A stretch of 64,000 nucleotides of DNA from Bilabrum cf. latius (Eukaryota). Of the stretch, positions 4,705 to 60,400 are shown one piece after another. Within the stretch, counting starts at the first letter, position 1. Each line of letters starts with the position of its first letter. The notes below the pieces were generated by a model. The model saw only the letters and a program-made list of their open reading frames with translations. It did no database searches and was not told where the DNA came from. Position numbers and translations under genes: made by a program. Location: positions 434,001-498,000 of the forward strand of contig OZ237749.1 of NCBI GenBank assembly GCA_965178125.1, written 5' to 3'.

Positions 4705-7700
4705 ATGGGCAGCGAGTTCGGGTTCAATTCAGCCCAAAGCATTGGAGAAGAATACGGACTTGTGCCGGTCAAGAAAGAGAGGTAGTGCTCAACGTGGTGT
4801 ATAGCCGCGGCTGCCATCGCAACTATAGTATTGATTGCGGTGGCCGTCACGCTTGGCGTGGTGCTGGCAGGCGGAAGCAATGATGATTCCACCAGCTAGC
4901 CATAGGATCCGGTGGCAGGATAGTCGCTTGATGCCGCTGTATTGGTGGATGCTGCCTGTGACACCCAAAGCACGAATGGAGCATTGGCGGGTCTGTTTTC
5001 GCACTACGCCCAGGTAGAGTTTGTGGCAGACAGCGACGTGTCCTGTGTACAAGCCGATAGCATATTAGATCAGCTGGAGCTTTCGTCGGGCATCGGCACT
5101 GAAGCCATACTCTTGGCCATTGAATCGCAGCCGGATTCCCGATTAGTTCGGCGTCGCGTGCTTCGGGATCGCAAGGTATAGCCCGCCACAGCCAGTGGTC
5201 GCAATGCGCGCAGGCTTTAGACATAGGTCGCATTCATTGTCAGAGCTACGTTTCTAGCTAGGAGCGAAGCCGAAGCAAATGGCGCTGCTCGACTCGTTGC
5301 TGATGCAATCAGTGATGGCAGCCTGCTGGACGGCCTGGAAGCTGCTCTCGAGGGCAGCGGCATCTAGTTTGACTATTCCACGGATGCGCAGCGCAGGCGA
5401 GTGCTCGTGGGCATTCTTACGAACGGAGACGGAGACACTACGAACGACGACCTCTCCTTACCGTCGAGCAGCGCAACCCCTTCAGTGTCCACTACAACTA
5501 CCCCAACTCCCGTCGCTCCCTCGGGCACCAGCACGGCATCGGCTCTGCCCAGCGAGAGCCCCACGACGAGCCCCACGCCATCCATCTCCAGCACGGCCTC
5601 ACCGACTGCGTCGGTCTCGAGCTCGCAGACCCCAACTCCTTCGGTGTCACCATCAGGGAGCCCCACACCCAGCACGACTGCTAGCCAGTCGCCCACACCC
5701 AGCCTCACGGCCAGCCCGAGCGTGTCTTCGACCCCGAGTACGAGCATGTCGGCGAGCCCATCCACTTCGCCGACCCCAAGCGTCTCGGCGACGCCGACTA
5801 TATCAAACACGCCAAGCATCACTCCAGTGAGTGCTGCCTCTTGCGTAGATGCACACGCTAAGATGCCGTTTACCCATCGAGAGAAGGCCTTGCTCAAGCC
5901 AGCATGCTGTTGCTGTGCCAGCCCACGAATGTTGCTGCCCCACAAGTCCATCCTTTGCACTCCCCTTTCGTGTTTCACCCCATGCAGACCCCGTCAATCA
6001 CTCCCAGTGGGACACCCACTCCGGTGAGTGCAGCCATGACACGATTATCAACGACCCCAACCGCTGCCCTCTCCACCAGCATGCGCCACGAATCGCTGCT
6101 CTACCATTTCGTTCCCGCAGTCTGCAACACCAACGCCAGTAAGTATGCCGTGCAGTATCCGTCGCACCCTGTTGTAGCTTTCCGATGAACGTTACGCAAC
6201 ACATCGCCAGCTGGAATTCTCCCACTGTAAATGTGTTGCATCTACCAAATGGCCCACAGGCACCTCTCGGCAACTTTACCATGTTCGTGAACAGCATGGT
6301 ATCCCGGAACTCTGCCACGTCAGCCAACGTCGTTGTCTACGAGCACGACACGCGGAGGCGCATCACCAACGGCACCGCCTCGAATTCGGAGGGAATCGAG
6401 GTCAACCTGCAGCACGGATCGGTGGCATACGAGGCTGTGGTGGAGGACGAGGCCTTCTATTCTCTCGAGCCAGTGATCTTCTTTCGGCCGTCCATTGAGG
6501 TCGACCTAGTGGTTCCAGCCCTGCCTGTGCTGAACGACAGCTCGATCACCTACGTGGCGCTGCAGTCGAACCAGCATCCCGTCGCTAGACTCAAGGCAGT
6601 CACGGGACCAGGCGAGAGCACGCTGGCCGCCTCGATCGTCAACAGCGTCAATTTCACGGAGAGCCAGACATGCGTGGTCCCGGGATCCTCCCCATGCGAG
6701 CTGACCGACACGAGCCTTGCCATCGGCACGGGCACCACATCATCGTACGGGTACTCTAGCCTCGTCTCGATCACCGACAAGAATGGCAGGTGTCAGGATG
6801 GCACGGCGCCGGATCCGACCCAGTGCATCGCCAGGATCACGGTGAGAGAGTGCATCGCTGCTTGCCACAGTGATACCTGTGTCGCGCTCTTGCGTGACAC
6901 TCTGCTTGCACTGCGGCTCGGGTGCAGAAAGGCTGTGTTCCGTCTCCACTCAATCATAATTCCTGATACGTGCAGCTACCCTAACATATTGATGCTTACA
7001 CTACGCAGGTCTACGGCACGAGCGCAGACGTGAAGGGCACGGTTGGGGGTGTGGGGACACCACAGATCGACGACGATCAGTGGCAGCTAGATAGGCAGAT
7101 CGATCGGCCCGGAGGTTTCGATTGGGAGCAGATCACCATGTCTGCAGGTGTGCGAGGCTTTCCTGCGCCCAGCCTGTTCGACTTTGTCGACTCGCCCGCG
7201 GTATCGATCGTGGATGCAGCCACGGGCGCAAGGACGGTCCTCCGCGCGAGGGACGCAGTCACGCAGGCTACTGTCGACTACGTCAATGAGACTGGGGCCA
7301 TCTGCAACGAGTGGCTTGCGGGGGCTGTGAACGTGTCGGACGGAAGCGTGATTGACTACCGCAATTCGACCGTGAACTCGAGCATCAACTGGGTTCTGGA
7401 GGAGTTCTTCATGACGAATTGGTACGAAGGATACGAGTGGTCCGACTAGCGCGCTATTGGTCGCAAGGACTTTGTGCCTTCCAACGTGTCTACGTATCCG
7501 TTCCTGTGCGGGCTGCCGCCATCGTTCTTGGCGGACAACCTGGAGACGATCGTTGGCGCGTACCATGACGATTATTACATCAACAGGATTGTCCGGCCCA
7601 CGTCAATGCTGTAGTGGATCGAGTATCACTTGACGAAGTCGAGCTTCGACGAGGAGAACCCCCCTTCCGCCTATTTCTACAACGTTGGTGACACGAGCAA

Positions 7701-7974: not shown

Positions 7975-8165
7975 TTCGCGATCTTGCTAGCAGCCCTTGT
8001 TTTAATCTTGTCCTCTGCTACTACTGGCGCAAGCAGCTCTGCACCACACAGAGAGAGAACCTCGAGTCTTCTTCTTCATAATCAGTCCATCAAAAATGCC
8101 ACTTTCACAGCAGATTCTCGCCCGGGACTCGCTTGCAAATACTACGGCCAACAATTGTTCAAAGT

Positions 8166-11100
8166 ATGGATTCTGGTGCCGCGGAAAGATCGCAAGAGCT
8201 CGCTCAGCCTCAGCTAGTGCGAACAGCAACTGATGTGGAACGGGCGAGCCAAGCTGACCACTACTCAGTGCAAGATCCACGTTTTCGCTGGAATGAACAG
8301 CTGCAGTCAATCGTTTCATTGCCTTGCTCGACTCCAGAGGAATCACGGGTTCGGCGTGAAGCAATTGGCAGGCTTGGCAGGCGATTCGGACGAGAGATCA
8401 GACCTGTATGCGAACAAATAGTTGCCGAGATGGGGTTACCAGACCCAGAGAAGACCATAAAGCCTGCCAATGTTGGTGGTATTGCTGGGGGTGTCAAGTT
8501 TATTCACAACGGTGTCCTTCTTAAATTTGCAAGTGACGACGTAGGCATCTACGGGAACTCCAAGGAAGGGGCCGGAAAGGCTGCCAAACTTGAATTCAGG
8601 GCATTGCAGACTCTTCTCGGTCTGAGCGTCGACGGTCTTCATGTTCCATTGCAAAGTGTGGCCCAGGTGCAGGGCTACAGGATTATCGCGTGTGCCTTGC
8701 TGCCAATCTCTGCAAGCTCGCTCGTTTACGGGTCCGCCGACGGCGGCCACACAGTTCACTGCGACTCATCAAAGTTTGCAAAGGTCGCTGAATCCGTTGC
8801 CAAGCAGTTGTTTCTGGCGCAGCACCCTGTTCGAGGGGTCCCGATCTGGCTCGCAGCCGATATCGAGGGCCACAGAGGAACAGACGGGAGACTGTACCTG
8901 CTCGACGCCGCGAGACTGATGCCGGCAGAAGCGCCGCCAACCCAACTGCACGGTGCTATCATTCCAGCAGATGCTGCGGGCGAGGGGGGGCTTCCTGGTG
9001 CGTGGGTCCCAGTGTCGGTGCCGTACAGGGGCACGAGGCAGACTGCATTGATAGGTAGGGACATGCTGCTTGAGCATCTCAACACGAGAGTCTCTTCAGA
9101 AATGGAAGGTGTGATAGACGCGACTGCAGTTGCCGCCACTCAAGGCGGTTCCTCTGCAGTAGGTGCTGATCGTATCACAACCGCTGCACCGAGCCCAACC
9201 GCCGCTGCCACAGGCGGCGCTGCTGACGAGGCACCATCAGCACCAAACCCGGCGACCAGTGACTCTGACGATGCCCCCACATCTGATGTCGTGCATGCCG
9301 ATAGTTACACAGTTGTCGAATTGTCTGGAACTGGGGGTCATGTGCTCCCAGCCGATGGCTATACCGCGCTGGCAGCTGGAGGTGAAGCATCACCGGCCCC
9401 AGGCATTGCAACGCCAGCTGCCTCTGGTGCTGGTACTTCCGAAGTAAAAGCGCATGTTGCCACCGGATATGCGTCTATCGAGGAGCTGGACACTGGCCCT
9501 GACCCAGGAGTCGTGCCTGCTGTAGCCGCAGGCTATACACAGGTAGACACTGTGACGGAGGGGTGGGGCAGGTCTGCCGCATCTGCCGCTGCAGGGAGTG
9601 CTTCATCGACCGCCCCCCAAGCAGCAGTTTCCCCTTCTCCAGGTGTTTCAGACGAAGCGCAAGCGCCTGCTCTGCAGGCTACGCCGGCATTAATCGGCGT
9701 GATGCTGGTCAAGACGTCATGGCCTCGTGCGTGCGCCATTGTGATGCTGAACCAGAGCCATCCAGATGTCATTCGCATGGCTGAAAATCGGCTTGCCAGT
9801 GCCTTGTTACCCGACGGACGGACGGCCTTGAGGGGTCCTGTTCTGCTTCTATCCTGGAGGCACAAGGGAGAGCATCTCACCAGACTGCTGCGTCCAGAGC
9901 TGCTACAGCGCTTCAGGCAGCCAGTTAGCGCCGATTCGCATAGCGGATTTGGCAAGGAAGACAAAGTAAAGCACAATGCCGTCGCGCGCGAGGCGACGGA
10001 GTTTCTTGCCTCGGCTGCCATTCCTGATTTTGCCCGCTCTTTGGATTGTATATGGGGGGGAAAGGAACGTTCTAGCAAAGAGAAAGACAGTGCGACAGGC
10101 GCTGGGCAGGCACCCACATCACCACTGGCCGAACCTCAGCCTGGCTCGCAGTCCGGCGGAGACACCAGCGACAACATTGGGGCTGAATCCCTGGCGCGGA
10201 TGGAAGCGGCTGTGCGCGATCATGAACGTAAGCTCAAGTTCGGCGATAGGTCGCCAAGCAGCCGCGGGAGAGACGACTCGGAGCTGCGGCAGCTAGCCCT
10301 GACAGACCCTCGAGTTTGGTCCGCGGCGGAACATCCTTACTCACTTGATGGCACTGCCGCAATTAACCTTGAAAGCAGGTGCCACGCGGCTGGTGTGCCA
10401 TTCAGAGCTTTCGGTAGAGTCAGGAGCGAGCTGAAGAGCAAGACTGCGCGCGAAGTGGTGCTGGCAGCCGCAGTGGTCAGGGCACTTCGGAGGATCGTGC
10501 TGGCAGCCACCGATGAGCTGGAGCGGGACCAGGAGGGCGCATTGATGTCTGATGAATTGAAGTGGGCGGCGGCTTCTGATCTCTTGGGGGGTTCCGCTGC
10601 AGCTATTAGTCGTGAGGCTTCGGCCGCGCGGCCGCCTGCAGAAGTTGCGCTGCAGCTGCTCCTGAACGTGCTATCGGAGTGCATTCCGGACAGGGCCGCT
10701 GCGGCGGGATCGCATCGTCTTTCTAGCATCGTGTCGTTTATTTGCTACTCCTTCAGCAGTTTGCTGCGCATCGTGCTGCTCTCGAAGTTCGAGAAGATTC
10801 TGTCCGCTCAGGAGCTGGGAGATGGTGTGTGCCCTTGGAGGGACTGTCTCGGTGGTCAAGCCAAGCAGTGGGTCCTGCGCAGCCTGGTGGAGAAACTTGG
10901 CGCGAAATGCGAGTTGGTGTGTAAATTAAACGACGGGGGCACATCGCTTGGATTACCCGCTGACGGCGGGTCCGCCGCTCTCGTTCCTGCCAAGCAAATT
11001 GTGGTACGTAGTTTAAGTGCGATCGTGCACCACCTCGATCCAAGCTTGGACCGGCTGCATGTCGAATTCAAAGCGAATGAAGATGATTTAGGTGCCTCAG

Positions 11101-14100
11101 TTGCGACTAGAGGAATTACTGTGGACGTTGAGAGCGATAGTGTCGAAGAAGTTCCGGTTCGCAGCTCTGTCGAGGTGGAGACAAGTACCGCCATGACCGC
11201 AGCTTGGGCCTCTGTGTCAAGGCGCGGCCCCCTTGGGCTTCATGAGAGCGTGCAATGCATGCTGCGGGCCGGTCGTTTAGTTTCATCGCGCCATGGACTG
11301 TACAGCTCTGCTGCAGGGCGAGTGTCGCTGCAACTTGGACGTCTTCTCATGCAATACGATTAGTTCGCCGCGGGCGCGAGTGCGCTTCTACACGCGATCG
11401 CTGCGTTCCAGACAGCGACGGTTGCACACTACAACAGGGCATTGAGAGAGAGCCTTGGGGCGGTGGGCAACTCTCGGGACTAGCTAGTGAAGCGGTTGCT
11501 GGGCTTAGAGTACTAGGATGGCCAAGAAAAGTCTGAATGGATGATGCAGAGCGGCGAGGCATTGGCGCGCACAACAGCGACCGTGTCGTTCCTCGAGCGG
11601 TACTTTCTTCAACAGTCATGTGCCCACGTTGTTGGTGAGGTGGAGCTACCTCCTCTTCGTAGCTTCCAGTCATTGACAGACGCCATTCTAGGCTAGATCC
11701 CGAGGCCTTGCGCTATCGGAACGGAAATTGACCTGGGCTGGTCAAGGCTACTGCTCTCCAGCTGCCTGTCTAGGATTGGTCAGCCCATGCCAGCCCAAGA
11801 GCTTGTGTCCCAAGCATTGAGAAGTTTCGATAGATTTGGAGGCGTCGGTCCGTCGCTCGAAGCGTTCGGGTCTTGGAGTTGTGCCATCGCTGCGACCACA
11901 CTAGAGGCGGGGAGATCAGCGCCCGCTTCTTGCATTGTGGCAGCGTCCAAGTTGATGCAAATGCCGGAGCACTCCATGCTGAAGCAGCAATACATTAGTC
12001 TCAGTCGGGTGCTGGAGGGAACCAACGCGAGATTCTGGGATGGTAAGAGCTCGATCTCGACTGGATCCACGGCTGGTTTAGATGGCCTTCTTTCTACAGT
12101 TGGGCGGCACACGTTTCGGTCTGCAGTTTGCGTTATTGAGGCCATGCTTTCCACCTGTACCAGCTCTAACGTGCTAAGGTAGCATAATGTAGTGCGAAAG
12201 GATCAGAAGTTTGGCGGCAAAGGGTTACAACACGAGTCGGTCTCACATTTCCTGCGGGACATCGTGGCTGAGTTCATGCAGGCTATTGGTGTAGACAAGG
12301 CGCTCATCCCCGATGTTTAGTAGAGTCAGTCCGATGGTCGAGAGTTGGCACGGTGCGCTGAGGTTCCTGGGCCGATCCTAGCAACCACTTTGTCTGCCGT
12401 AATAAGCTCACATCTGTATGCGATGGGTGGCTCTATCGCAGCTGAAGGCGGCGAGGATCGAGGGTATGCTCATGCCGGCGGTCTGCTCCTGCGCTGCGCG
12501 AAGTATGTGTTTGGTCTGATCGGCTTAGAATGGCCGTGGAAAGGACGCGAGTCCAGTGATCAGAGTTTCCGTGCTACTGCATCTCCCGGCAAGCTGGTCT
12601 GGCAGGCCGGGGGCGCTAGCGCAGATGCACCCGATAGCTCTCAAGGCTTGCCTCTTCCAGGGTCGATCGTGCGCATTCCATCCAGCCGCATCACGTATCT
12701 GCGGGGCAAAACGCTGCAGGATTCCTTTGTTTTAGCGTGCGATGCCAGCCTTGCTTTGAGCCAGCCGGCGCTGGCTGCTGTGTTCGCCCAGCTTGCCGGA
12801 CAGACCTTGCTGAACGGCTGCAGGGCAGCCGACCACGCAGCTATGTACTTTCAAGATGCATCATATGCGCTACCCAAGCATAGAAGCGCGGCTGGTCCAT
12901 CGGGCAGCGCGCCTCTACCGAGCACAGCGGAGGGGGCATTTGAAGCTTCTGTCTCCAAAGCGCTGACAGATGCGGCGCATCTCCGTGGCACCAGTGCTGT
13001 GCTTCCAGCCATTCGGATTGGTCTCTTGCTGTTCTACACCGGCCATCTTGACTTGGCTGAGGATGTCTTTGCATTCCTGCTTTCATCAGGACCCCCTGTT
13101 CCGGCGGGTCAACGACCGCCAGGCCATGTTCTGTTTGCAAGGGATTACTCAGCTCGGTCAGCAAAGTACAGGGAAGTGATGTCCACGTATTCAGAGCTCG
13201 GTGTTGATCCTCGCTAGCTGCTACTGTGCCTGGAGGCATGTATGTCCATGGAGCCCGGCCGAGATGAAGCTGACGTGGAGGCGGCAATCGAGCTCTGCCT
13301 GGAAGGTGCGGGCCCTGCGTAGCTCATGCAAACTGCAACGATGAGGCGAGCCGGTCAGTTGCGCGCAATTTCCTCATTGGCTGACCAGTGCAAGCTAAGA
13401 CTAGACTTTAGCCGGCGGCTGCCAATTTGCTTGCAGTACGGTGCGGGCCAAGCATGGTCAGAGCTGAAGAATGTAATGTAGTCGGCGAAGCTGCAACAGC
13501 AAGAGAGTGCACGAAAGCTTGCGGCTGCTTCTGGAAGGAATACGACCTCCGGTGCCGGAAATCATGAGCTTAGCAACAAGTTTGTCGAAACTGCGACAAG
13601 CCAATCAAATTGCACTCGTTTGGCTGACAAGGGCAACTCGAGTGGCGACGCAGATGACAGCCAAAAGGCAACACCTGCAACAACAGACGATATTGATGAC
13701 TTGCTTGCGCTGGCACTGGACGACTTGGGGATTGAATCCGAGACGCCAGCAACCGGTGCAGCTACCGGTAGCAGCAACAAGACCGCCTCGCGAAAGACCC
13801 CGGACGGCTTCGAAGTGCTTCCAGGTTTGCAAGCCCTCGGCAGCCGGCCAGCATTCGTGAGCCCGTTGGGTAACCACGAGCACCAGATAGTGGACATGAC
13901 GGGATCGCACGGAGAAGAGGGGTGGGGACACGGCAGCACCGCTGTCCACTCGTGCTGCTAGTGGTTGTGCCCTTGGCAAGACAATCCAATCTAGATGACG
14001 GCACAGGTCAAGTGGAAGTTTGGCGGTCCCGATCCGATCGACTACGTGAACTGCTATCGGGTTCCTGCGGCGCGTGGAGCCGATGGGCAAGAATTTCCAG

Positions 14101-15173
14101 AGCATTGGTTGTTTGTGACGCAAGGTTTAACCAACACTGGCGATGACAATGCGCAGTTCACGTGCAGAGGCTAGAACGTACTCGCGGGGCTTCCGCCGGG
14201 CATCGGCGGATTCTAGCGATCTGGGTTTGGCATCGAACTCACGATGAGGCTGGTTGCTTTGCCCGCTGAAGGATCGATCCCAATGTGGCCTGTGCGGGCC
14301 CTGCAAACCCTTGCGCGATACATGCACCACAGCAAGAACGTCTTCATGGAGCATCACTTCACACCGTCGCTATTCAAGAGAGACGACTGCATCCCGGGAC
14401 ACGTCACATTCGGGAGAGACCCGCAGCTGCCCGCAGGTATCCTTACAAAGCACGGTGTTGTGGAGTTTTTGCAAGTGATAGGATTGGTGGGGGATGAGTT
14501 TCAACTCGGCCAGCAGTGGTCATTCGGTGGGATGCTTAGGCTACTGAAGGCTGCCCGACATCATGCCGTTTAGGTCGGCCCACTGGGACTCATCGACAGG
14601 AATCGGAGGACTTCTGCTTTCAAAGCTTGCCCCGATCTATTGCGCATTGCCAAGCAGAGGCAGGCAGTCGAGGGTGCCAGCACAGGGTAGTTGTCTGGCG
14701 ATATGACATGGCGGGCCGGATCCGACTCCTTCAAACTAGACGGCTCCCTGATGATGACCAACGCAAGGCTTCGGATGACCGTCCCTGTCCTGCACGCAAT
14801 CGTTCAAGCGCTCAAGCACAGGCTGCGCCATGGGAAGCCAATGCTGTTTCATGATACGGGGTAGGCTCCTGCAGTCGATGACAGGGAAGGGAAAGACGTA
14901 CTGCTTGTGCCTGATGCGGTCAGCGCCGACCAGCACGCGCAGTTTGGGCCTGAGCTATACGTCGCCAGCGCAATGCAGCCACTCGTGTGCACTCCTTCGC
15001 AGCGACTTGTGGTGTTTGTGGACCGTGTGGCCGCAGAGCGGGTCGCTGACGCTATTGACTCGCTGCAACTGGACGAAAGCTCTGTATTGCCTGCCACGAT
15101 CTCGCTGCAGCCTCACTTGCCCCTGCAGCTGCTCGTGATACCCAATGAGGAGACTGAAGGCGACTATGCGTGA
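8166..15173 (+). CDS. Clu (clustered-mitochondria) domain protein fused to a C-terminal Suppressor-of-fused (SUFU) domain, ~2335 aa
   Basis: ORF pieces 8133-11363, 11787-12182, 12345-13217, 13620-13961, 14244-14573 and 14907-15173 share one frame and are separated by TAGs; final stop is TGA. Clu motifs: GGIAGGVKFIHNGVLLKFA, LVYGSADGGHTVH, DIEGHRGTDGRLYLLDAARLMP, HLTRLLRPELL. SUFU motifs: QDNPI*MTAQVKWKFGGPDPIDY, PEHWLF, SGFGIELTMRL, WPVRALQTLARY, DPQL..GVVEFLQVIG. Confidence 0.85.
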
Positions 15174-15394: not shown

Positions 15395-17025
15395 TCAAGA
15401 GCCTTTCTTCAGAAAAGCAAGCATGGATTTTTGGCCACGTGCGGGCAGGCTGGCCCCCTTCTTTGACTTTGGCGATTTTCGCCTGCCAGGACTACCATGT
15501 TGTGCCAGGATCCCTCCCAACCTCTACGGCGACATGCGAGCCTTCTTGCCCATTGGAGGCCGAACATCCTCTTCTTTTTGACGCTCCTGAGCCTCAGTTG
15601 CTCCAGACGATGAAACTCCGCCGTCTTCTCGTTCACCGCTGTCGCTATCGCTCGAGGAATCGTCCAGGAGAGACACCTCGCCGGCCGCTGCGGCACCCGC
15701 TCCGCCGGTGCCTCGGCTTCGTTTCTAGCCGACAACGGCACCAGAAGTCCCACTTGGATCGGTCGAGTCCGCAGCTGCTTCGGCTTGCAGACCAGAAGGT
15801 GTAGATGACGGCGTTGCTGATGAGCTGCTTGTGGCCGTCACGCCGAGCGCAGAGGACTCTCCTGCTTTGCTACTTGAGGGGCCAACACTGGCAGAAGCTG
15901 AGCTTTCGCCGTCACCACCCGTGGCTGATGCAGCTTTCTCTGCCCCACTTCTTGTACTTCCCTTTCCACCTGCCGCCTTCTTGCCTCCAACGAAGAAACG
16001 CTTGATGCTGGCGGCCTCTTTCTTCCGCTTGATCGCTTCTAGGTCGAGCGGCTCGGATGTGTCTGGCTCCCGGTACCTCATGTTCGATACCTTCCTGTCG
16101 ACAGGGTGCCACCTAAGCTTCGGCGCATGCTCGGGACTCAGTTTCTTCCGCAATGCGGGCTCGTACATGAACTTATCAAACGGGACCTTGTCAGTACGGA
16201 GCCATTCGTCAGCGTCGTCCCAACTCGCAAACATGACCGGCATCCGCGTATGTATCGCGCTGAAATCTTTGGACGAGTTCTCTGTAACTATAGCGTACGA
16301 GTATAGTTTGACAGGCTTTCCATCTTCGTCGACGGTGTCCCAAATATCCCAAAGGCCCGCAATCAGGAGTGGGGCAGCGCGGTCGTCTTCGTCATCCGCC
16401 GTAGTATTGCCGTCGGGGTTCGAGCCGGCTTGCACAAAGTACGGCTGCTTGAAGCGCTCACCATCCCTCTCCTCCGTGTGCCATTCGAAAAACCCTTCCA
16501 CCAGTATGACACAGCGCCGGCGATTCACGAGATTGCGAAACGTTGGCAGCTAGTGGCAGGTCTCGCTCCGAGCGTTCATGCACCCGTCACACTGCCAGCA
16601 GTGCACGGCGAAAACGGCCTGCCAAAAGAACTCAAAAACTCACAAAAGCTGTTGAGACCCCAATGCATGGAGCGAACGACACGGATGTATTCACCGCTAG
16701 ACGCACCACTCCCACTGCTCGGCGACTTGGACGTAGTTGCAGAAGAAGCATCGGCACTTTCGCGTACAGCACTCGGCAGAAAAGATGGCTTCTCGTAGTA
16801 CACCACCGGGGTAACCATGCCTGGTATACAATTGTATTGAGGTTTGTCTGCGATTATAGGGATAAACAGACTGTATATGCATCGAATGCAGTGAGAAGAA
16901 ATGCTGGATCGCTGGAATATCCACGTGCTTTCACATTTGTCTTCGTCAATCCACCTTTTTGCTGGAACCCTTGCTTTGCGATACACGGTAGATTTCTTGA
17001 AGGCGCACCTAGTTCGCCCACACAT
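15395..17025 (-). CDS. HMCES: SRAP-domain abasic-site protecting protein (HMCES/YedK family) with C-terminal PIP-box-like motif
   Basis: Starts MCGR (catalytic Cys2). Motifs MHWGL, NARSETCH*LPTFR, RRCVILVEGFFEW, KQPYF, IHTRMPV. Intron 16848-16934, plus a second GTGAGT intron near 16592-16643 whose junction appears one base off. In-frame TAGs at 16550, 15725 and one further downstream. Ends GQKSMLAFLKKGS-TGA 15395. Confidence 0.92.
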
Positions 17026-17042
17026 TGCACAGAAAATATTGA

Positions 17043-42920: not shown

Positions 42921-43108
42921 TACAGGACTTTTTGGCTTCCTGGACGTCGAAAAATGTGTATCGCCGCAATCAGAAAAATCCAGAACCATCGGCAGTTTAA
43001 AAATGAAGATGAAGATACAACGCATAAAAAGCGTTCCTCGGATTGTCGCTTGTGTGAATTACGTGCTGATACTCTATCATCTCTCTTCGCTTTGCAGTAA
43101 GTTTACCT

Positions 43109-47175: not shown

Positions 47176-50100
47176 TTACCCCATTGCTGCGCTAACACGC
47201 ATCTATCCACGAGACCAAGCCATGATCTGCCTCGTCAGCTCCTCCCCCAGGCTAGACCCAGGCTAACGCAACCTAGCTGTGAAGCTCTGCCTCCACCGCT
47301 CAAGCTCGCTCAGGAACATGACGGGCCTTTTGGAGAGCTCCAAGTCCTCTTGGGACAGCAACGGGGTCAGCAACCGAATGCACTCTTTCGTAGATATGAT
47401 GCCGCTGTCGTAGCAACCGCTGCTGGGGTGAACGCCTTGACTGGGCTGCCCAGTGGCTGCTGCACTGCCGCTGCTGGTTGAGGCATCCGCACGACCGTAG
47501 CCTCGGCGGCTCGTTGCTCCAGGCCCCCGCACGCTCTTGTGGTCCACCAGCGATCCAACTCTGGAACGCTTCACCGGCGGCCTCCCGATGCTGGAAATGA
47601 CGCTGCCAGCCACCGACGGGTCCGCTGCTTCACGACCAGGGAGCGAGTCGTCGGTCAATCCACCGGTGGATCTCGCATCCATCGGGGCGCCGATCCCGGA
47701 CGCTCTCCTGCCGTCACCACCCGTGGGTCTGAGTTCCTGCCCTCCGCCAGCAGGCGCAGCTGTGCCTGCTTCGCTCGGCGGCACCGATGGCGGGCCGCTG
47801 AGCCGGCTGCTGCCGTTGTACGGCACCCCAAATGCAACTGCCTGGACGTACGTGTCGGCCTGCCCAAGCATGGGCAGCATTCGTCGTGTGGCACTGTCAG
47901 GCACGGGGTCCATGGTGATGCTGCCCTCGTCCTGCAGGAAGGCGCCTGGAGGCAGTCCTGAGGCGAAGTCTTCCCTTTGCCCGGTAAGGCCAGTCATCAC
48001 GCTCTCGCCGCCGTCCATCCTGAGCTGTATCGGATCTCCATGTGCGTCACCTTCCGCGTCTGGTTGGCTGCAAGGCCTTGATTGCGATGACAGCGAGACC
48101 GGTGGCAGCGATGAATGGCCGCCCACCCCAACGAGGTCAATCGCAGAGGGTCCGTCGTCCCCTCCCTGCAGCGCAGCAACGTGCAGCAGCTCATCATCGT
48201 CGTCGTGCGTGGTCGATTGGTCACCCATGGCGGGCTGTGCCATCGTCCCACTAGCGCCCGCCCCGTACTCCGACACGCTTGCCAGGCTATGCCCGGCAAC
48301 AGACTGCTGTCCAACAGAGGCAGCAGCTCCTGCCATGACCTACCCGCTGCCATACGACGTATATCCACTGGCGTGGCCCCTGCCATTCCCGCTCTGGAAC
48401 ATGGATCCAGGTTGCAGAGCCGAGTCCTGGCTGTGCAGCTGCAGCCCGGATCGACCGCTAGAAACGCCGCTCTCACACAGCTGCCCAAGCCCTCCACGGA
48501 TGTCGGCAGAGCGCAAGGAGACATCGCTCGTATACATATCGCCACCTGAAGCAGATGTGATGCCGCTATCATAGGCCATGGGTCTCGAGGCAGGCGAATA
48601 AGATGAATCGATATGGGCCGCCCGGTGGCTCCCTGTGCCTGTAGATGGCGCGTCTTGTATCACTTGTGCGAGCATCCGGCATGGTCCAGAGGAGACTAGC
48701 GAACTGCCAAATCCCTTCTAGGATCGAAAAGCAGCCGCACACATTCCTGCACTGCTAGTAAAGCCATGGCCGTCCTGAGGTATGGTGCCGCCAACATGCC
48801 GCTGCTGCCTGCTTGAAGATGCTGCAGCAACCCCATCCTCCTGGGAGAGGTCGGTCATCTGCGTCATCTGCGTCATCTGCGTCATCTGCGAGACCATGCG
48901 ATCTAGTGGGCGCCTAGAGGTGGAGGAACGCGCTGCGCCCTTTGCGGCCACAGCCTCCGCGTAACTCGGAAGCCGCGGGCCGTCAGCTGCTTCGGTGCTT
49001 GCCTCCGATGCGGCAGACTCGCCAGCTGCAGATGGAGGCTCACCTACCTCAGCTGCAGCCCCTGGAGTACCCAGTGCACCAGCCGTCGTATCAGCAGACT
49101 CGCAGTCTCCGCCGATCCCTGCTGCAATGCTCGATGATGATGCTTGCGTCGGCGGTTGCTCGGCTGCTCTCGGCACCGCCGCCTTATGCGATGATTCCCG
49201 CCGCTTTGCCTCACGCGCAGCCAGAACCTGAGCCACCTCCTCTGGGAAGTCTGCCAGCGATGGTATCTTATTCTTTGGCATCATCGTGACGGTGCTTGCC
49301 CTTGGTACGGTCCCCAGCCAATCAATGGAGACCCGCGATTCGATCTCGAATGGCATGCACAGGATGCGGTCCATCACGAACATGGGGCACAGCATTGCGG
49401 CGGCCTCTTCGTCATCGTCATCCGCCCCACCCGTTGAGGCCTCGCCGTCCGACATGCATACGCTAGCTCCATCCATTCCCTCCCTCACCTGCCGCTACCC
49501 TTCGTTCCTGGCTCCATCGCCGCTTCCGCTGCCTTCCGACTGCGCTGACAGCGATGCGGCTGTGCTGCTTCCGCCGCTCTTGGCAGCAACAGGGGCGTCT
49601 GTCCCGCCTCCGAGGCCTGCAGCCGCATCCAGCAACGCATCATCATCATCCTCATCATCATCATCCCCGATACCGCATGCCCCACCTGACTTGCCCAACC
49701 GGGCCTCGGCCTTGATTGGCGCCAGCTTGACCGCCACGGCAGGGGGCACCTCCCTCTCAAGCATGCGGCAGAACTCAGCGACTTCCAGCTTGTCCCGCTT
49801 CGAGGCGAATTCGTAGCGCATGTACAGTGTCTCAAAACCGTACGATTTCCGCTGCGACGCAATTCCGCCGAGCTGCCTCACCGACTCCACAAAGCTGTAC
49901 AGCGGTGTGGTGAGCGGAAAGGAAGACATTGTGGTGACCACCAGCTCGAGCATCGAGTCCTCTCCGAATAACACTCGCAACGCGGCCTTGTTGACGAATC
50001 CACCGATGGATTGCAGCGTGTAGGGGTCGTGGACGCACCGCCCAACCGCCACCGGGGACTTTGACAGCTGAGCCAGGACACGCTGGTCGTGCGCGTGGAG

Positions 50101-51288
50101 GTCGTGGTGGAACCCGGGCCGCAGGGCTTGAGGTGGCAGGCCGGGCCGCTTTCCATCCGGCATGAGGATGTTGTTGATGACCCTATCTATTGATTTGGGC
50201 ACGAACACGTTCACGTTGTAGTCTCCTCCCAACACGGCAGCTAGCCCCGGGGGGACCGCCCTTCTCCCCATCATGAGGCGCATGCTGCCCTGGCTGTCTG
50301 TCTGGACCATCATGGTCTGCGGTGGGATGCTGCGGGGAACTGGCGCGTATGGCTCGCGCAGTGCGCGCCTAAGTTCGGCATACTGCTCCTCTGTGGGTTC
50401 GTGGAACTGGGCATCTGCTTCGAAGCCGAGCTCGAGTGCTGCTAGCACGCGAGACACGTCTGCCTCCGTGACGGGCTCTGGGCGCCTGTCTCGCCGCCTC
50501 GTGTTTCGTTCCAAGCTCCTGCTGCTGGATTCATCGTGCGCTGAGCGCTGGCCTGGGCGCCTACGCGGCTTCCGAACGCTGCCGCCGTCGAGCTTTGCAA
50601 GATCTGGAATAGGCACCGCAAGAGTTGCTGCGGGACCCGGTCCGCCTAGCGAACCATTGGAAGGAGCTGCATCTCCAGTGTACTCTGTCGAGGCACGCCA
50701 CTCGCCTCCAACCGGTGGAACGGGGCCAGCAGCGCCCTCATGCTCCGGAGGATGCGGCCCTTGCTCCAACAATGACCTTCCTTGCTGCAAAGCAGTTCCG
50801 CTGATGCTTGCATCTTCTCTTTGCTTAGACTGCTGCATTGACGGTTGAGGTTGCGATGCTGACGAGACGGCCCTTTGTTCGCCCCCAAGTTGCTCTGCGA
50901 GCAGAGCCGCAACCGCCATCGACTACCGCGCTCCTTTTGACAGCTAGGTCCCATTGATCGGCTGGAGAGTAGTACTACCGGCAGCCACGGGGTCAGAAAT
51001 ATTCGTAACTATTGCTCCATCCGAAGATACGCCTCTGGCCTTGAAGGCTTTCGTCCGACGATCTTCTACTTCAACGCACGGTATGCCTTTTGCTACACAG
51101 CGGGTACAAGGGCGCTTTCCATCGCATGATCTTTTCCCAGTTTGACAGGCAAGACAAGAGCGCTTGCCCTTCCTAGAACCGGTTCGTCGCCCTGTTTTCT
51201 TCGGTTTCTACGCTTGCTATCCCGCTGGGGCGCTTGAATTCTATATTGTACCACCCTCATCTCTCTTCCGTTTCCCGCCGCCGAGCAT
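47176..51288 (-). CDS. Zn(II)2Cys6 transcription factor, paralog F (~1370 aa)
   Basis: MLGGGKRKRDEGGTI*...KRSCLACQTGKRSCDGKRPCTRCVAKGIPCVE joins via TAGs to ORFs 49495-50919, 48718-49488, 48340-48675, 47263-48336. The family motif LGEELTRQIM lies after TAG 47263. Ends TAA 47176. Confidence 0.88.
48854..48890. repeat. 9-bp tandem repeat (GTCATCTGC)x4 encoding (QMT)4 in paralog F
   Basis: Directly visible in the sequence. Confidence 0.9.
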
Positions 51289-51481: not shown

Positions 51482-52900
51482 ATGCCTTTCTTTGCGCTGC
51501 TGGCTGCAACAATCCCATTTCTGATTATTTGCTCTGCCGCAAAGGCTGAGTCTAGCAGTCTGCCGCTTGCCAGGACATATGCGCAGTCCTCCGATCGCAT
51601 TTGCGTGACTCACTGGGGCGGATGCTACAACCGAAGCACGACGGCGTACATTATGGACGGCGCACAGCAAATCTGGGACTTCGGGTCTCGAGCAATCAAG
51701 ATTAACCTTGTGGCCGGTCGCCAAGCGTATCGCTGGAACAGCCCTGGGTGGCCAAATCGATTTAGCTCTGCGCTTGAAGCTGCCCAGCACCCGTACATAC
51801 GGAGCGTGCTTGACCCTGCAGGCAATTTTCAATGGAGCACCGTCACCATGATCGTGTATGCACTCTAGAACGATTCAAGCAGTAACAACTATTGGCGGGA
51901 TTCATTCACTGCAAATGATGCTGCGCGAGAAGAGGAGCAATTCAAGGAACTCACGGTCCACCTGCTCGAAACGTACCCCAACATGCACTTCGTTTTGCAG
52001 CATTGGGAAGGCGACTGGTCTATCCGGCCTACAAGCGATCCATCGCTTCGTCCAACACCTCAAGCCACTAAAAATATGATTGCTTGGCTGGGCGCGAGAC
52101 AGAGAGGGGTGCAGGCTGGCAGGGAGCTGGCTGAGGAGCGCAGGGCACGGTCCGGGAGACGCTGGCAGGCCGGGGCTGGAGCCGGCGGTGGGTCGGTCCT
52201 GCACGCAAGCGAGGTCAATTTGGTCCGCAGCAGCATGCAAACCGGCTTCCCAAACGTGGTGAACACGGTGCTCCCCCACGTCGCCCTCGATATGGTGTCT
52301 TATTCGAGCTACGACACGCAAGGGAATGGGGGTCCTCTCGGATACAGGGCAGCTCTGAGCTTCATCGCGGAGCACGCCAACCGCACGGCAGAATCCCCCA
52401 AGGAATTCGTTTTCATCGGGGAATACGGCACAAAGCAAGAAATCGCCCCTCTCCATGTCACGCAGGCAGTGAACGAGGTGGCGGCAGCTGCGGTCCTGGG
52501 CAACGACACGATCGGCCCGCTCGATTTCGTGGCAAGGGCGTGTTTCTGGGAGGTGTACGGGAACGATCTGGTAGATGGCCCCAGTGGTGGCTTGCCTGTG
52601 CTGCAATCGTCCATGGGCAGGGGTGGAATAGGGTTGCTTGCCGGTGTGGCAGGTCACTAGCACAACCTGCCTAGCTGGCTGCTGGCTCGGGCGGAAGGTC
52701 GCAGGGTAGAGATCGAAGGGGAGGCAAGGATCGGATCAATGCAGGGGGTCGGATCAAGCGATCTCCGCCATGGTAGATGCACCACCGAGCCTGTATTCAA
52801 TGCCTCGCAGCTGGGCGGGCTGTGGCTTGTGAAGCCTGACGGGAGCCATGCGTGGCCGTATGACTATCTGAGGGGTCGCATTCTAGACGGGGCGGCATAA
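51482..52900 (+). CDS. Secreted protein, putative TIM-barrel glycoside-hydrolase-like (~472 aa)
   Basis: Signal peptide; HWEGDW, LDMVSYSSYD, VFIGEYG, FWEVYGND and GLWLVKPDGS motifs. In-frame TAGs end at 51868 and 52660. Ends TAA 52898-900. Confidence 0.7.
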
Positions 52901-55400: not shown

Positions 55401-56021
55401 ATGTTTACTAAAGATTAGGGTCCACTATGGAGAAGGATGATGGTGGTGCTAGAAAGAGCAGGAAAGTTCAATAAGCTCCCTCCGGTACCCGAGTTGAAAG
55501 CAATGGTGCTCGAATATTAGGTACTGCAGCTCAAGCTGGCACAAGTGGAAGTTGTTGCAAATCATGGGAATGGACTTGTCAAAGCGATAGCCACATGCGA
55601 CGGAAAGCTCAGCCGTGTGGAGTTAAGTGGTCGAGCGAAGGAACTGCCTCGTGAAGGCCTGCAAGAGGTCGTGACGGCGGCGGTCAACGACTCCATTGAG
55701 AAGGCTAGACTACGACAGCGAAAGGCAGACGAAGTTCTGATGGACAAGCACGTTCCAGCCTTGATTGAGCTTGCCAAAACTGTCTTTATGGCAGACCCCG
55801 AGCTGAGGGCAGCATCGTTGCGCCTCGAAAACCTCGAGAGCGAGGCCGAGGCCGAGAGAGACATGGAGCGGCTTCGGAAAGAAAAGGGAGATTTGGATCA
55901 GAAGGCGCAGCAGGCATCATCGGGTGGGCAGTACGGCGGCGCGGAAGGGACAGTGGTAGAGGCGGAGGAGATAGAGGTAGAGGCAGGGGCAACCGAGGGG
56001 CAGCAGGGGGGCAGGCAGTGA
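55401..56021 (+). CDS. YbaB/EbfC-family (bacterial nucleoid-associated-like) protein
   Basis: ATG 55401, two in-frame TAGs, then LEY*VLQLKLAQVEVVANHGNGLVKAIATCDGKLSRVEL...LQEVVTAAVNDSIEKA, matching the YbaB pattern. Ends TGA 56021. Confidence 0.8.
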
Positions 56022-57434: not shown

Positions 57435-60400
57435 ATGATGCGAACAGTTCTAATATCTTGTATAGTCCTCATAAACGGTGGCCTAGCGCAGTGTTCTTGG
57501 AATCAAGAGCCCTTGCGGCTGGCACAGGTTCGGCAATGCTTCGATGACGGTGGTGCTTACAATGAAACCAGAGCTCAGCAAGAAGTCAATATTGTCCGGC
57601 ATGCAATGGATCATTACTCATATTTGGATCTGGTACGAAATAGCGGGCCGCCATGGGACTATAGGCTCGACACGACAGCAGTCTTGCAGAACCTATCGGA
57701 AACAGCATCTGTCCCAGGAGCCTATGCCCAAGATTGGTCGTTCTACGTGAGTGAAGCGCACGAAGTGCCCAGTAACGCAGTATATACCCACTCATGCGTA
57801 TTTTTGGGACAACTTTAGCTGTTGTGCGGCGTGGGGGGAGTCCGTTCAGCCCGGCATGGCGCCAATTCCGCTATCACACTTTCCCTTTCACAACCTTGCC
57901 ATCCGCATGTTCGATGGCCCTGTCCGCCCCATTTTTATTGAATGCGCAGGAAGCACTATCTACGCCGCTACGAGCCATGGGTGACTCTCATGTTGCGGTG
58001 CTAAAGCCCTCCTGCTACGCAATCATTGGCGCCCAGCCGGTATCTCCTGCACCATTTTACCTAGACAGGCAGAACCCAAACCAAGTTCGATATTTCTTAA
58101 CAGAATTTAAACTTGGCTAGCTAGATCTCGCCAGGACGTACGATCCCGGGGCCGTGGCGTTCCTACCAGCGCGTGAGGTCAGCCGCAGCGTCCTCCAGCT
58201 GTACGAGGTGCTGGCAGTCGATGGACTAGCACCGGCGGAGTACATTGCAAGTATCATTAGTGATCCAGCAATCACGTCGCCGTACAGCCACGATCCTTCC
58301 GTGAGCTTCACCGCGGCTCTGCGCAACCTGCAGGCGAGCCTGCGGCTGCTGCAGCTAGACTCTTTGCCGGCAAGCAGATAGGTTACCTACACCTTGCGGC
58401 GATGCGAGGCCCCCATGTCTGGAACAGACGTAGACTCTGCGGATCTGACGCAGCTGGCCTGCGCGTAGAACCTTGCTTCGAACGAGGTCACGCTGCGGGC
58501 CGATTGGCTCTTCTTCCACACGGCTGCTCGCCGGCCCACCACTGCTGCACAGTTTGCTCGCCTGTGCGAGCGGCAGTCGGCCCGGCCCGAAGTAAGGACA
58601 GGAAGCAGCTGCAGGGCCTCGGCAGTGCCGCGCTCGTCGGACGACGGCCGTCGCGAGCCCGGCTGGCTGGCCAGGGCGAGCATGTTTACCAGCGAGGGAG
58701 CGAGGGGTGCCCTGCTGCGCAAGAGCATACTGGAAGACGCGCGCTCGTCACACCAGGGGAGGTTTCTCGGGGAGCACCCTCGACAAGGGCAATAGGAGGA
58801 AGAGGAAGGAGGTGTTGAAATGGTGCCAAAGGTGAGCGGGTACAGGAGCGCACTCAAGCACATGCTCGGGAGCATCGAGCGGAGGCATGCCCGCGAGGAG
58901 CCGAGCACCGGAGGTCGACGGGCCCGAGCAGGGGCCCAGGGAACAAAGGAGGAAGGCTCAATCTTCGCGTTGAATGCCCTGCGCGCCCTTGACGACTCGG
59001 AGCCGGTCTGGGCGACGGGCACGGGCACGGGTGCTGTGGCCGGCGGTGTGCCCTCTGGGGCGGCGCTGGAGCAGCTGCGCGAGGCTGACTTTTCGCGCGC
59101 TCTGCAGGAGAGCGGCACTGGTGGCAGCGGGGCCACATCGCGGTCGGACCTTGCTGACGTGTCCACCGTGCGACGTCTTTAGGCCGCGGACTCCTCCGAC
59201 GAGCAGTCCATCTTCGAGGTCGTGCGCACCGTGTTCAACACTCATCACACCCAGGAGCTGCGGGAGGTGGAGGAGAGGCGCCAGGCCCTCATTGCTGATC
59301 CGAACGTCACCGCAGTGCCCACGAAGGAGCTGCTGCTGACGGCCCGCAACTACACCTACACGAGCATTTTGCTCAAGATACCCTCCTTTTCCCCCAGCGT
59401 GTTCACGTCGTGCTTCGCTGGGGTCGACGTCACGTGCGGCACCGACGTGGCGCTCAGCGAGCTGGACACGTGCTTGAGCAACGCAGCTGCGACCTTCCTG
59501 CGGCGGGGCGCCGCGGGCGCTTACCAGTTCGCACGGGCGAGGAATGCTTCCCAGATCATCGTGGACGTGACCGGCAACGATGGGGGGGTCGTGCTCCTCG
59601 GCAGGATGACCGCAGCTGCGCTCAGTGCGCAGGTGACGAACGTTCCGTCGCTCGCCGAGTACGCGAACGAGATGCGCCCGGGGTCTGTCGTGTCGGCCAT
59701 GGCGAGGTTCGTGGATCAGCAGAACGGTGTTGGCTCGGCTCGACGCCTCGCCTCTATGCTGGGGCTTGAGGAGGTGCCCGGTGCTGGGCGACAGCAGCAG
59801 CAGCGGCAGTAGGGGCACGCGAGGTCACACATGGACAAGCGGAAGGACAGGAACGATATCGATGCTATTCACAGCAGGCGGCTGCAGCAGACCGTGACAG
59901 CCAGGCACTTCCCCTCCTTCCCTCTTTGGGGCCTCCTCGACCCCGTCGATACCGCCGTGAGTGCTACTAGTCCGGATGCTTCCATCGCCGTGGACGACGT
60001 GGACGGCGGGCACGGTTGGTTCTATGCTTCTGACGAGACGCGGCGCTGGGGCGGTGGCAGGCATTCGGTGACCAAGGCCGTGAAACTCTTCGACCTCACC
60101 GCCGAGATGGCCGAGCTGCCTGCCGATGTGTTCCCCAGGAGTCCTGGGGAGCTGATTGCTCCCATTCCGATCATCATTGCCTCGGACGGCATGTGCGGGT
60201 CAACGTGCGCGTAGTTCCTTCGGTCCATCGTGGACACGGGATTGGGCACGGTGCTTGGCCTCGTGGCAAGCGCTGGCACTGCCTATCCGGTCAGCGTGAC
60301 CGACAGCTTCGCCGGCGGCTTTATCGTTCAGGACTCCGACAGCCAGCTGGTGCTACCGTACATGGAGGCAAGGGAGCTGGGAATGGCCGACCCGGCCACG

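What the first reader, a model, noticed from the sequence alone, without database searches (positions are those of the whole stretch)
5218..59812. Six independent positions identify the UAG amino acid as glutamine
(1) SUFU QDNPI*MTAQVK (TAG 13992-94) vs animal SUFU QPNPLQVTAIVK. (2) YbaB LEY*VLQLKLAQVEV (55518-20) vs E. coli EKMQKMQEEIAQLEV. (3) Paralog A CVAC* (25599) vs CVSCQ, CVACQ, CVACQ and CLACQ in four in-window paralogs. (4) RRL* (5218-20) vs the RRLQ motif encoded with CAG near 59880. (5) Internal repeat GKGQ-GKG* (38103-05). (6) PolyQ run CAG CAG CAG CAG CGG CAG TAG (59810-12). A few sites align to Glu instead (47263 vs QEPG; SRAP 16550), which is compatible with conservative Q/E exchange. 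The external sequences are recalled from memory.
Basis: partly seen in the sequence, partly recalled or inferred. Interest (0 to 1): 0.88.

Follow-up and report, generated by a model that had tools for sequence, protein, structure and literature searches.

The report
UAG read as glutamine, UAA still stop
This stretch of a GC-rich single-celled eukaryote's genome uses the usual stop codon TAG as an ordinary codon, almost certainly for glutamine, while TAA and TGA still end genes: a rare but already known kind of genetic-code change.

Summary
All six cited TAGs exist and are in frame. Three carry real weight: SUFU 13992, YbaB 55518 and Zn-cluster 25599. The RRLQ comparison is between unrelated proteins. 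The GKG-repeat and polyQ sites are anecdotes.

TAG is clearly a sense codon. Reading it as sense gives 9 open frames of 1149-2363 codons, against a longest of 1093 under the standard code.

New tests point to Gln:
- In relatives 71-93% identical, 10 window TAGs face Q 5, K 2, A 2, T 1. The same scoring recovers 58 of 58 sense codons.
- Of 11 relatives' protein fragments, cut at standard-code stops, 4 end opposite a window TAG and 5 opposite CAG.
- The one conserved SUFU column holds Q in 36 of 50 homologs.
- A 35%-identical ortholog on a metagenome contig (L001) also reads TAG as sense, and its TAG partners mirror those of CAG/CAA.

TAA is not reassigned: 0 internal TAA against 190 CAA in 16,517 codons, and two ORFs end in TAA.

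This is the UAG=Gln, UAA=stop code known from Iotanema and some ciliates. The host is apparently another lineage, which I could not place. No tRNA, eRF1 or whole genome could be examined.

The parts
8133..15173 (+). 2346-codon ORF with an N-terminal CLU domain and a C-terminal SUFU domain; 17 in-frame TAG, ends in TGA
   Evidence: One continuous ortholog lies in L001 and in the 1977-aa protein P0028.
13992..13994 (+). TAG at the one conserved SUFU column
   Evidence: Q in human SUFU, CAA in L001, Q in 36 of 50 homologs. The TAG is shared with the close relative: P0002 ends here and P0021 starts here.
13215..13217 (+). TAG facing Q in the 85%-identical relative P0002
13479..13481 (+). TAG facing Q in P0002
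14862..14864 (+). TAG facing Q in relative P0024, with 19 of 20 flanking residues identical
13959..13961 (+). TAG facing K in P0002, E in L001 and R in human SUFU (variable column)
13320..13322 (+). TAG facing A in P0002
23430..23432 (-). TAG in Zn-cluster paralog A facing K in the 91%-identical relative P0018
25599..25601 (-). TAG after the second Cys of the Zn2Cys6 motif of paralog A
   Evidence: Paralogs have CAG, CAG, CAG, CAA and AGA; Pho7 has Q.
25560..25562 (-). Second TAG in the Zn2Cys6 motif of paralog A
   Evidence: Pho7 has Q. In-window paralogs have A x4 and T x1.
55518..55520 (+). TAG in the YbaB-like domain
   Evidence: Q in both solved YbaB chains; Pfam YbaB_DNA_bd match.
58118..58120 (+). 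TAG facing Q in the 79%-identical relative P0169
59180..59182 (+). TAG (RRL-TAG) facing Q in the 71%-identical relative P0170
58379..58381 (+). TAG facing T in P0169; shared as a fragment end with the 95%-identical P0172
58466..58468 (+). TAG facing A in P0169
59810..59812 (+). TAG closing a CAG-rich run (Q Q Q Q R Q TAG)
5218..5220 (+). TAG after Arg-Arg-Leu in ORF 4648-6027 (9 TAG); the cited comparison has no value
38103..38105 (+). TAG in a GKGQ-GKG-TAG repeat; the coding frame is only weakly supported
16550..16552 (-). TAG in the SRAP domain facing E (HMCES) and T (YedK)
47263..47265 (-). TAG in paralog F facing E in 2 paralogs and R in 3
47176..47178 (-). TAA stop of Zn-cluster paralog F, at the same C-terminal place where paralogs C, D and E stop with TGA
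52898..52900 (+). TAA stop of ORF 51482-52900
21807..51288 (.). Cluster of six Zn2Cys6 paralogs (A-F) carrying 62 in-frame TAG. The tandem pair D/E shares 5 TAG at identical positions.

Best explanation
The window is nuclear DNA of a GC-rich (58%), intron-poor eukaryote. In its genetic code UAG is an ordinary sense codon read as glutamine, and UAA and UGA remain the terminators.

Shown here:
- TAG is translated through, not terminated at.
- Its aligned residues behave like those of CAG/CAA.
- TAA is not used as a sense codon.
- At least one distant relative (metagenome contig L001) and several close relatives share the code.

Inferred from established knowledge of other UAG=Gln lineages, not seen here: decoding by a tRNA-Gln with anticodon CUA, one base change away from tRNA-Gln(CUG), together with an eRF1 that no longer recognises UAG but still recognises UAA and UGA.
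For: TAG is a sense codon:
- The standard code gives a longest open frame of 1093 codons. TAG-sense gives 9 frames of 1149-2363 codons; TAA-sense gives no such gain.
- 116 in-frame TAG lie in 17 ORFs, 14 of which end in TGA and 2 in TAA.
- Pfam domains lie downstream of TAGs: SUFU lies after 11 of them.
- The tandem paralogs D and E keep 5 TAG at identical positions.
- Contigs of runs X7 and X8 cover at least 10 TAGs with 0 differences. Those runs also hold spliced GT..AG joints.

The residue is Gln:
- Close relatives (1369 aligned columns, 87% identity): 10 window TAGs face Q 5, K 2, A 2, T 1. Q wins under PAM30, PAM70 and BLOSUM62/80/90.
- The same scoring recovers 58 of 58 sense codons and 9999 of 10,000 ten-site subsamples.
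- P(5 or more Q in 10 by chance) = 2e-5.
- Of 11 relatives' fragments, the window codon just after the last residue is TAG in 4, CAG in 5, AAT in 1 and GAA in 1. P(5 or more of 7 on CAG) = 3e-7.
- For P0001 the terminating codon is seen in DNA to be TAG, opposite window CAG.
- L001, both directions pooled, n = 32: Q 7, E 4, R 4, A 3, S 3. The BLOSUM62 sum is Q 26 and E 13. This profile matches that of CAG/CAA codons in the same alignment (Q 20, E 12, A 10 of 88).
- Family columns: 13992 has Q in 36 of 50. 55518 has Q in 2 of 2 solved YbaB. 25599 and 25560 both face Q in Pho7. 25599 faces Q in 4 of 5 paralogs.
- E and K cluster strongly with themselves in these proteins, but are not enriched around TAG (z = -4.4 and -3.4). 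Q gives z = -1.5.

TAA is a stop:
- There are 0 internal TAA against 190 CAA.
- Paralog F ends in TAA where its paralogs end.
- L001's ortholog ends in TAA.
Against: - TAG sites are less conserved than ordinary Gln sites. Q faces Q at 47 of 54 CAG/CAA sites, but at only 5 of 10 TAG sites.
- Two TAGs face Lys in close relatives, although Q-to-K was 0 of 54 and K-to-Q 1 of 31 in the same alignments.
- In the strictest L001 subset (local identity 40% or more, n = 10), Glu scores 19 and Gln 16.
- Six of the seven SUFU-region TAG columns are variable and say nothing.
- 25560 faces Ala or Thr in the in-window paralogs.
- 16550 faces E or T.
- Q is not enriched next to TAG.
- No tRNA was found in the window or L001, and no whole genome is held. 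The decoding machinery is therefore unseen.
- Only one of the five CAG-facing fragment ends was checked in DNA to be TAG.
- There is no protein-level evidence.
Confidence: 0.88

Rival explanations
1. UAG is a sense codon but encodes glutamate, as UAR does in peritrich ciliates and Blastocrithidia, and UAG does in one oligohymenophorean ciliate.
For: Glu is the runner-up in the distant ortholog comparison (E 13 against Q 26). It leads in the strictest 10-site subset (E 19, Q 16). 13215 and 13959 face E in L001. 16550 faces E in HMCES. 47263 faces E in two paralogs.
Against: 0 of 10 close-relative sites face E. None of the 5 informative fragment ends faces GAG, and the single GAA end is probably a contig end. 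The conserved SUFU column has E in 1 of 50. E is depleted around TAG, although E clusters with itself 1.63-fold (z = -4.4).
Confidence: 0.03
2. UAG is a sense codon but encodes lysine.
For: 2 of 10 close-relative sites face K (13959, 23430). K is the runner-up in the BLOSUM matrices.
Against: Q outscores K in every matrix (44 against 23 in BLOSUM80). K faces none of the 32 TAG-aligned sites in the L001 comparison. No fragment end falls on AAG. The conserved column has 0 K in 50. K clusters with itself 2.07-fold but is not enriched near TAG (z = -3.4).
Confidence: 0.03
3. UAG is decoded ambiguously or inefficiently. One version is decoding by near-cognate tRNAs, giving mostly Gln with some Lys or Tyr. 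Another is context-dependent stop or sense, so that no single residue is correct.
For: TAG sites are markedly less conserved than CAG/CAA sites (5 of 10 against 47 of 54). TAG is absent from the first 1076 codons of the CLU-SUFU gene, which hold 39 CAG/CAA (P = 0.0015). There is an excess of K partners. That near-cognate readthrough of UAG can insert Gln, Tyr or Lys in yeast is recalled knowledge, not checked here.
Against: No Tyr partner was seen in 42 aligned sites. TAG sits at a strongly conserved Q column and is itself conserved there in the close relative. All 16 complete ORFs end in TGA or TAA, none in TAG.
Confidence: 0.05
4. The TAGs are not translated as such. The ORFs would be pseudogenes, or the transcripts would be edited (U to C, giving CAG) before translation.
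For: None positive. Editing would also produce Gln-like columns.
Against: 116 TAG lie in 17 ORFs, with protein-level conservation continuing downstream. TAG positions are shared between relatives and between paralogs. Contigs from runs that contain spliced transcripts carry TAG unchanged at 10 or more sites. Caveat: those runs are only guessed to be RNA and may contain DNA.
Confidence: 0.01

Closest known systems
Iotanema spirale (Fornicata) nuclear code: UAG = Gln, UAA and UGA = stop (PMC5304391, passages read)
   Same: Only UAG is reassigned and it goes to Gln. UAA is kept as a terminator, so the two UAR codons are uncoupled.
   Different: Iotanema terminates mostly with UAA; here TGA dominates (14 of 16 complete ORFs). 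The window's gene content points to another lineage: a fungal-type Zn2Cys6 cluster, and a SUFU domain whose three named best homologs are all animal proteins. The window is also GC-rich (58%).
Phyllopharyngean ciliates and Protocruzia tuzeti: UAG = Gln, UAA = stop (PMC11687900, discussion passages read)
   Same: The same code variant.
   Different: No direct test of ciliate origin was made. What the window shows is a 64-kb, 58% GC, multi-gene stretch with 86-96 nt GT..AG introns.
UAR = Gln codes (NCBI table 6): many ciliates, Dasycladales and other ulvophytes, Hexamita, Streblomastix, Amoeboaphelidium protococcarum
   Same: A stop codon reassigned to Gln. Amoeboaphelidium is also an alga-associated opisthokont.
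   Different: TAA is not a sense codon here (0 against 190 CAA). Amoeboaphelidium genomes are about 40% GC (PMC10608142, Table 1 read) against 58% here.
Code 15 in crAss-like and other gut phages (TAG = Gln; PMC9523058, abstract only)
   Same: The same codon-to-residue change.
   Different: Those are bacteriophages using suppressor tRNAs late in infection. This is a eukaryotic nuclear genome with spliceosomal introns.

Membership tests
Nuclear code UAG = Gln with UAA/UGA = stop (Iotanema type, old NCBI table 15) | In-frame UAG inside conserved protein-coding genes | tested here: met
   116 TAG in 17 ORFs. SUFU, YbaB, SRAP, EMP70 and Zn_clus domains are all interrupted by TAG.
Nuclear code UAG = Gln with UAA/UGA = stop (Iotanema type, old NCBI table 15) | Homolog residues at UAG-aligned columns favour Gln | tested here: met
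   Close relatives give Q at 5 of 10 sites, and Q is best in 5 matrices. L001 gives Q 7 of 32, the best score. Column 13992 has Q in 36 of 50. The method recovers 58 of 58 sense codons.
Nuclear code UAG = Gln with UAA/UGA = stop (Iotanema type, old NCBI table 15) | UAA is not used as a sense codon and does terminate genes | tested here: met
   0 internal TAA against 190 CAA in 16,517 codons. 2 ORFs end in TAA and 14 in TGA. The L001 ortholog ends in TAA. This rests on one 64-kb window only.
Nuclear code UAG = Gln with UAA/UGA = stop (Iotanema type, old NCBI table 15) | A tRNA with anticodon CUA and glutamine identity | not testable with these tools
   No tRNA in the window or L001 (ARAGORN; Rfam). 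No whole genome is held.
Nuclear code UAG = Gln with UAA/UGA = stop (Iotanema type, old NCBI table 15) | An eRF1 that has lost UAG recognition | not testable with these tools
   eRF1 is not in the window.
Nuclear code UAG = Gln with UAA/UGA = stop (Iotanema type, old NCBI table 15) | Gln seen at UAG positions in peptides | not testable with these tools
   No proteomic data were available.
UAR = Gln code (NCBI table 6) | UAA also read as Gln | tested here: not met
   No in-frame TAA in any of the 17 ORFs. About 49 would be expected if TAA/CAA equalled TAG/CAG (counts).
UAG or UAR = Glu codes (peritrichs, Blastocrithidia, ciliate PL0344) | Aligned columns favour Glu | tested here: not met
   E at 0 of 10 close sites. 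E scores 13 against Q 26 in L001. E leads only in a 10-site subset.
UAG = Leu (rhizarian exLh, some ciliates) or UAG = Ser (Scotinosphaera) | Aligned columns favour Leu or Ser | tested here: not met
   L and S are each 0 of 10 in close relatives. In L001, L is 2 of 32 and S is 3 of 32.
Amoeboaphelidium (aphelid with a reassigned stop codon) | Genome composition of about 40% GC and the UAR = Gln code | tested here: not met
   The window is 55-61% GC in 4-kb bins, against 40.5% and 39.9% in PMC10608142 Table 1. TAA is not a sense codon here.

The most novel reading that the evidence does not exclude
An undescribed clade of GC-rich protists has independently evolved the rare uncoupled code UAG = Gln with UAA = stop. 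The clade looks opisthokont-like: an animal-type SUFU domain and a fungal-type Zn2Cys6 family in the window, and a P2X-like receptor gene on L001. It is at least as deep as the 35%-identity split between the window and metagenome contig L001.

In this clade UAG would be a second-class Gln codon. It is kept out of constrained regions: 0 TAG in the first 1076 codons of the CLU-SUFU gene. It sits at sites that change faster than CAG/CAA sites. Both hint at slower or slightly ambiguous decoding.
Probability: 0.35. Interest if true: 0.7.

Novelty: new member of a known kind. Interest (0 to 1): 0.5.

Why it matters
UAA and UAG almost always change meaning together. Only a few nuclear lineages are known to split them: Iotanema, Protocruzia, some phyllopharyngean ciliates, a rhizarian and Scotinosphaera (PMC11687900, PMC5304391).

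Another, non-ciliate lineage with UAG = Gln and UAA = stop would be one more independent data point on how eRF1 and tRNA-Gln co-evolve.

There is also a practical consequence. Standard-code gene calling shatters this organism's genes. The public protein fragments found here end exactly at TAG, so annotation of this genome and of related metagenome contigs needs the variant code.

Tried and rejected
- Whole genome: none is held for this window.
- Sequencing runs: no RNA holder listed.
- Laying runs X6-X9 on 8133-28132 showed a roughly 87-90% identical relative in X9 across all 30 bins. Only 40 of 1756 differing positions were printed, so its bases at TAG sites could not be read.
- tRNA and RNA-family scans of the window and L001: nothing found.
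- TM9SF (1 TAG): no solved homolog.
- pLGIC ORF: its TAG columns fall in poorly aligned loops of ELIC.
- Fragment search with paralog A gave only 2 fragments, because low-complexity words swamped the candidate list.
- L001 shares no other gene with the window. Its other ORFs gave only a weak P2X match.
- Neighbour-composition test: it gives no positive signal for Q and is used only against E and K.
- In-window paralog columns are mostly in low-complexity, poorly aligned regions. Only about five are usable.
- Amoeboaphelidium as the source: rejected on GC content and TAA use.
- The RRLQ motif argument: rejected.
- Literature searches found no paper describing UAG = Gln in a GC-rich non-ciliate lineage of this kind. 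Subscription journals and supplementary files were not searched.

Full report
**What the window is.** The 64-kb window is 55-61% GC. Under the standard code its longest open frame is 1093 codons. Reading TAG as sense gives nine frames of 1149-2363 codons, while reading TAA as sense gives no comparable gain. The long frames encode eukaryotic proteins:
- a 2346-aa protein with a CLU domain and a C-terminal SUFU domain;
- an SRAP-domain protein;
- a TM9SF/EMP70 protein;
- a YbaB-like protein;
- an ELIC-like pentameric channel;
- six paralogs with a fungal-type Zn2Cys6 cluster.

Contigs of three public runs join 20675 to 20772 and 20922 to 21009 across GT..AG introns. This is therefore spliced nuclear DNA.

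**Checking the six sites.** All six TAGs are in frame.

It aligns to CAA in the ortholog on L001. Of the 166 proteins I aligned, 50 have an ungapped context at this column; 36 of those have Q and 9 have H.
- Site 2 (55518) aligns to Q in both solved YbaB proteins.
- Site 3 (25599) faces CAG, CAG, CAG, CAA and AGA in the five paralogs. It faces Q in S. pombe Pho7, the best solved homolog, which also has Q at the neighbouring TAG 25560.
- Site 4 compares a three-residue motif between proteins with no detectable similarity (E = 0.79), so it is worthless. A second RRL-TAG at 59180 does face Q in a 71%-identical relative.
- Sites 5 and 6 are present as written but are anecdotes. Over 17 ORFs, Q is no more frequent within three residues of TAG (3.8%) than in the background (3.9%).

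Three of the six sites therefore carry weight.

**Close relatives.** Public protein collections hold fragments from organisms 71-97% identical to the window's proteins. They were called under the standard code and so are cut at stop codons. Ten window TAGs lie inside such fragments:
- Q at 13215, 13479, 14862, 58118 and 59180;
- K at 13959 and 23430;
- A at 13320 and 58466;
- T at 58379.

I summed substitution-matrix scores over these ten sites. Gln comes first in PAM30, PAM70, BLOSUM90, BLOSUM80 and BLOSUM62 (for example 44 against K 23 and E 11 in BLOSUM80).

As a calibration, the same procedure on the same alignments assigns the right residue to 58 of 58 sense codons with five or more sites. 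It also does so for 9999 of 10,000 random ten-site subsamples.

**Fragment ends.** For the 11 fragments I looked at the window codon opposite the position just after each fragment's last residue. It is TAG in 4, CAG in 5, AAT in 1 and GAA in 1. The GAA case belongs to a fragment that also lacks a start codon, so it probably runs off its contig. CAG makes up 2.7% of codons, so five or more of seven on CAG has P = 3e-7. For one of the five (P0001) I hold the DNA, and the terminating codon is TAG. For the other four this is inferred.

**A distant relative with the same code.** Metagenome contig L001 (54% GC) carries the ortholog of the CLU-SUFU gene at 35% identity. It is open for 2011 codons only if its 25 TAGs are read through, against a longest standard-code frame of 312 codons. 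The ORF ends in TAA.

I pooled both directions, pairing a TAG in one genome with the residue in the other. I kept sites where at least 16 of the 20 flanking columns were ungapped, which left 32:

| Partner residue | Count |
|---|---|
| Q | 7 |
| E | 4 |
| R | 4 |
| A | 3 |
| S | 3 |
| G, T, L, I | 2 each |
| N, D, V | 1 each |

Gln scores 26 and Glu 13. The same scoring recovers 57 of 61 sense codons, and 4010 of 4300 subsamples of 32 sites. The partner profile of TAG closely matches that of CAG/CAA in the same alignment (Q 20, E 12, A 10, R 8, H 8 of 88). It does not match that of Glu codons (E 46 of 146) or Lys codons (R 12, K 10 of 61).

**Results against the reading.**
- In the strictest L001 subset (n = 10), Glu edges out Gln, 19 to 16.
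- TAG sites are less conserved than ordinary Gln sites: 5 of 10 against 47 of 54.
- Two Lys partners are more than the observed Q/K exchange rate would predict.
- Six of the seven TAG columns in the SUFU region are variable.
- 25560 faces Ala or Thr in the in-window paralogs.
- 16550 faces E or T.

A side argument helps against the two runners-up. Glu and Lys cluster with themselves 1.63-fold and 2.07-fold in these proteins, yet are not enriched around TAG (z = -4.4 and -3.4). Gln's deficit is within noise (z = -1.5).

**UAA and UGA.** The 17 ORFs hold 16,517 codons: 116 TAG, 446 CAG, 190 CAA and no internal TAA. Fourteen ORFs end in TGA and two in TAA. Paralog F's TAA sits where paralogs C, D and E stop. 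The code is therefore UAG = Gln with UAA and UGA as stops, not the commoner UAR = Gln.

**Transcripts.** Contigs from runs X7 and X8 contain the spliced joints. They also match the window without any difference across TAGs at 13479, 13959, 13992, 14571, 14688, 14862, 16550, 22524, 22650, 23127 and 27430 (table 8). This argues against U-to-C editing. The caveat is that these runs are only guessed to be RNA.

**Mechanism.** By analogy with other UAG = Gln lineages, I expect a tRNA-Gln(CUA) and an eRF1 that has lost UAG recognition. Neither could be looked for. No tRNA or Rfam family lies in the window or in L001.

**Comparison with known cases.** UAG-only reassignment to Gln is reported for Iotanema spirale, Protocruzia tuzeti and two phyllopharyngean ciliate lineages (PMC5304391 and PMC11687900, passages read). 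UAR = Gln is reported for Amoeboaphelidium (PMC6299283, passage read).

The window is not Amoeboaphelidium, which is about 40% GC (PMC10608142, Table 1). I made no direct test of ciliate origin. The three named proteins among the ten top SUFU-domain hits I looked up are all animal SUFU. Together with the Zn2Cys6 family, that suggests an opisthokont-like protist, but I could not place it.

Six literature searches found no description of such a lineage. Supplementary files and subscription journals were not covered.

**Verdict.** The interpretation (UAG = Gln) is supported at about 0.88. The code type is already known, and the host lineage appears to be an additional one: a new member of a known kind.

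Noticed in passing
window 8133-11360: The first 1076 codons of the CLU-SUFU gene hold 39 CAG/CAA but no TAG. The remaining 1270 codons hold 17 TAG and 58 CAG/CAA. P = 0.0015 at the window-wide TAG share of 15.4%. In the L001 ortholog, TAGs are spread over the whole gene.
   Followed up: partly
window 21807-51288: Six large paralogs (1141-1653 aa) lie in a cluster. Each has an N-terminal Zn2Cys6 motif and a shared C-terminal region. D (39123-43025) and E (43109-46696) are a recent tandem pair at 79% identity overall, with a diverged middle.
   Followed up: partly
window 8133-15173; L001 1-6036; P0028: An unusual architecture: a CLU domain at the N-terminus and an animal-like SUFU domain at the C-terminus of one protein of about 2000-2350 aa. 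It is conserved in L001 and in a 1977-aa standard-code protein, P0028.
   Followed up: partly
window 20675-21009: Two GT..AG introns (96 and 86 nt) on the + strand are seen as joints in contigs of three runs. The 343-aa minus-strand ORF 20685-21716 listed by the ORF listing is therefore probably not the gene here.
   Followed up: no
window 15395-16606 (-): The SRAP match starts at profile position 76 of 214. The catalytic N-terminal part, including the Cys2 region, must lie in an upstream exon or be missing.
   Followed up: no
window 17103-19224: Runs X6 and X8 each hold a second contig about 86-90% identical to the window, alongside an identical one. Three runs have loose ends at 17113, and X9 replaces 17103-17358. 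This suggests alleles, homeologs or a strain mixture, plus a structural variant.
   Followed up: no
window 55401-56021: The YbaB-like protein also gives a weak, non-significant match (E = 0.31) to mitoribosomal protein mS60 of entry 7aor.
   Followed up: no
window 26989-28251; L001 7264-8688: The window encodes an ELIC-like pentameric ligand-gated channel (E = 4e-10). L001 encodes a weak P2X-receptor-like protein. Both are eukaryotic signalling genes interrupted by TAG.
   Followed up: no
runs X1-X8: Four different coded organism labels, in four of the five studies listed, hold this stretch at shares of 0.35-1.00. The source may be an organism that travels with other cultures, or one filed under several names. 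I did not pursue this.
   Followed up: no
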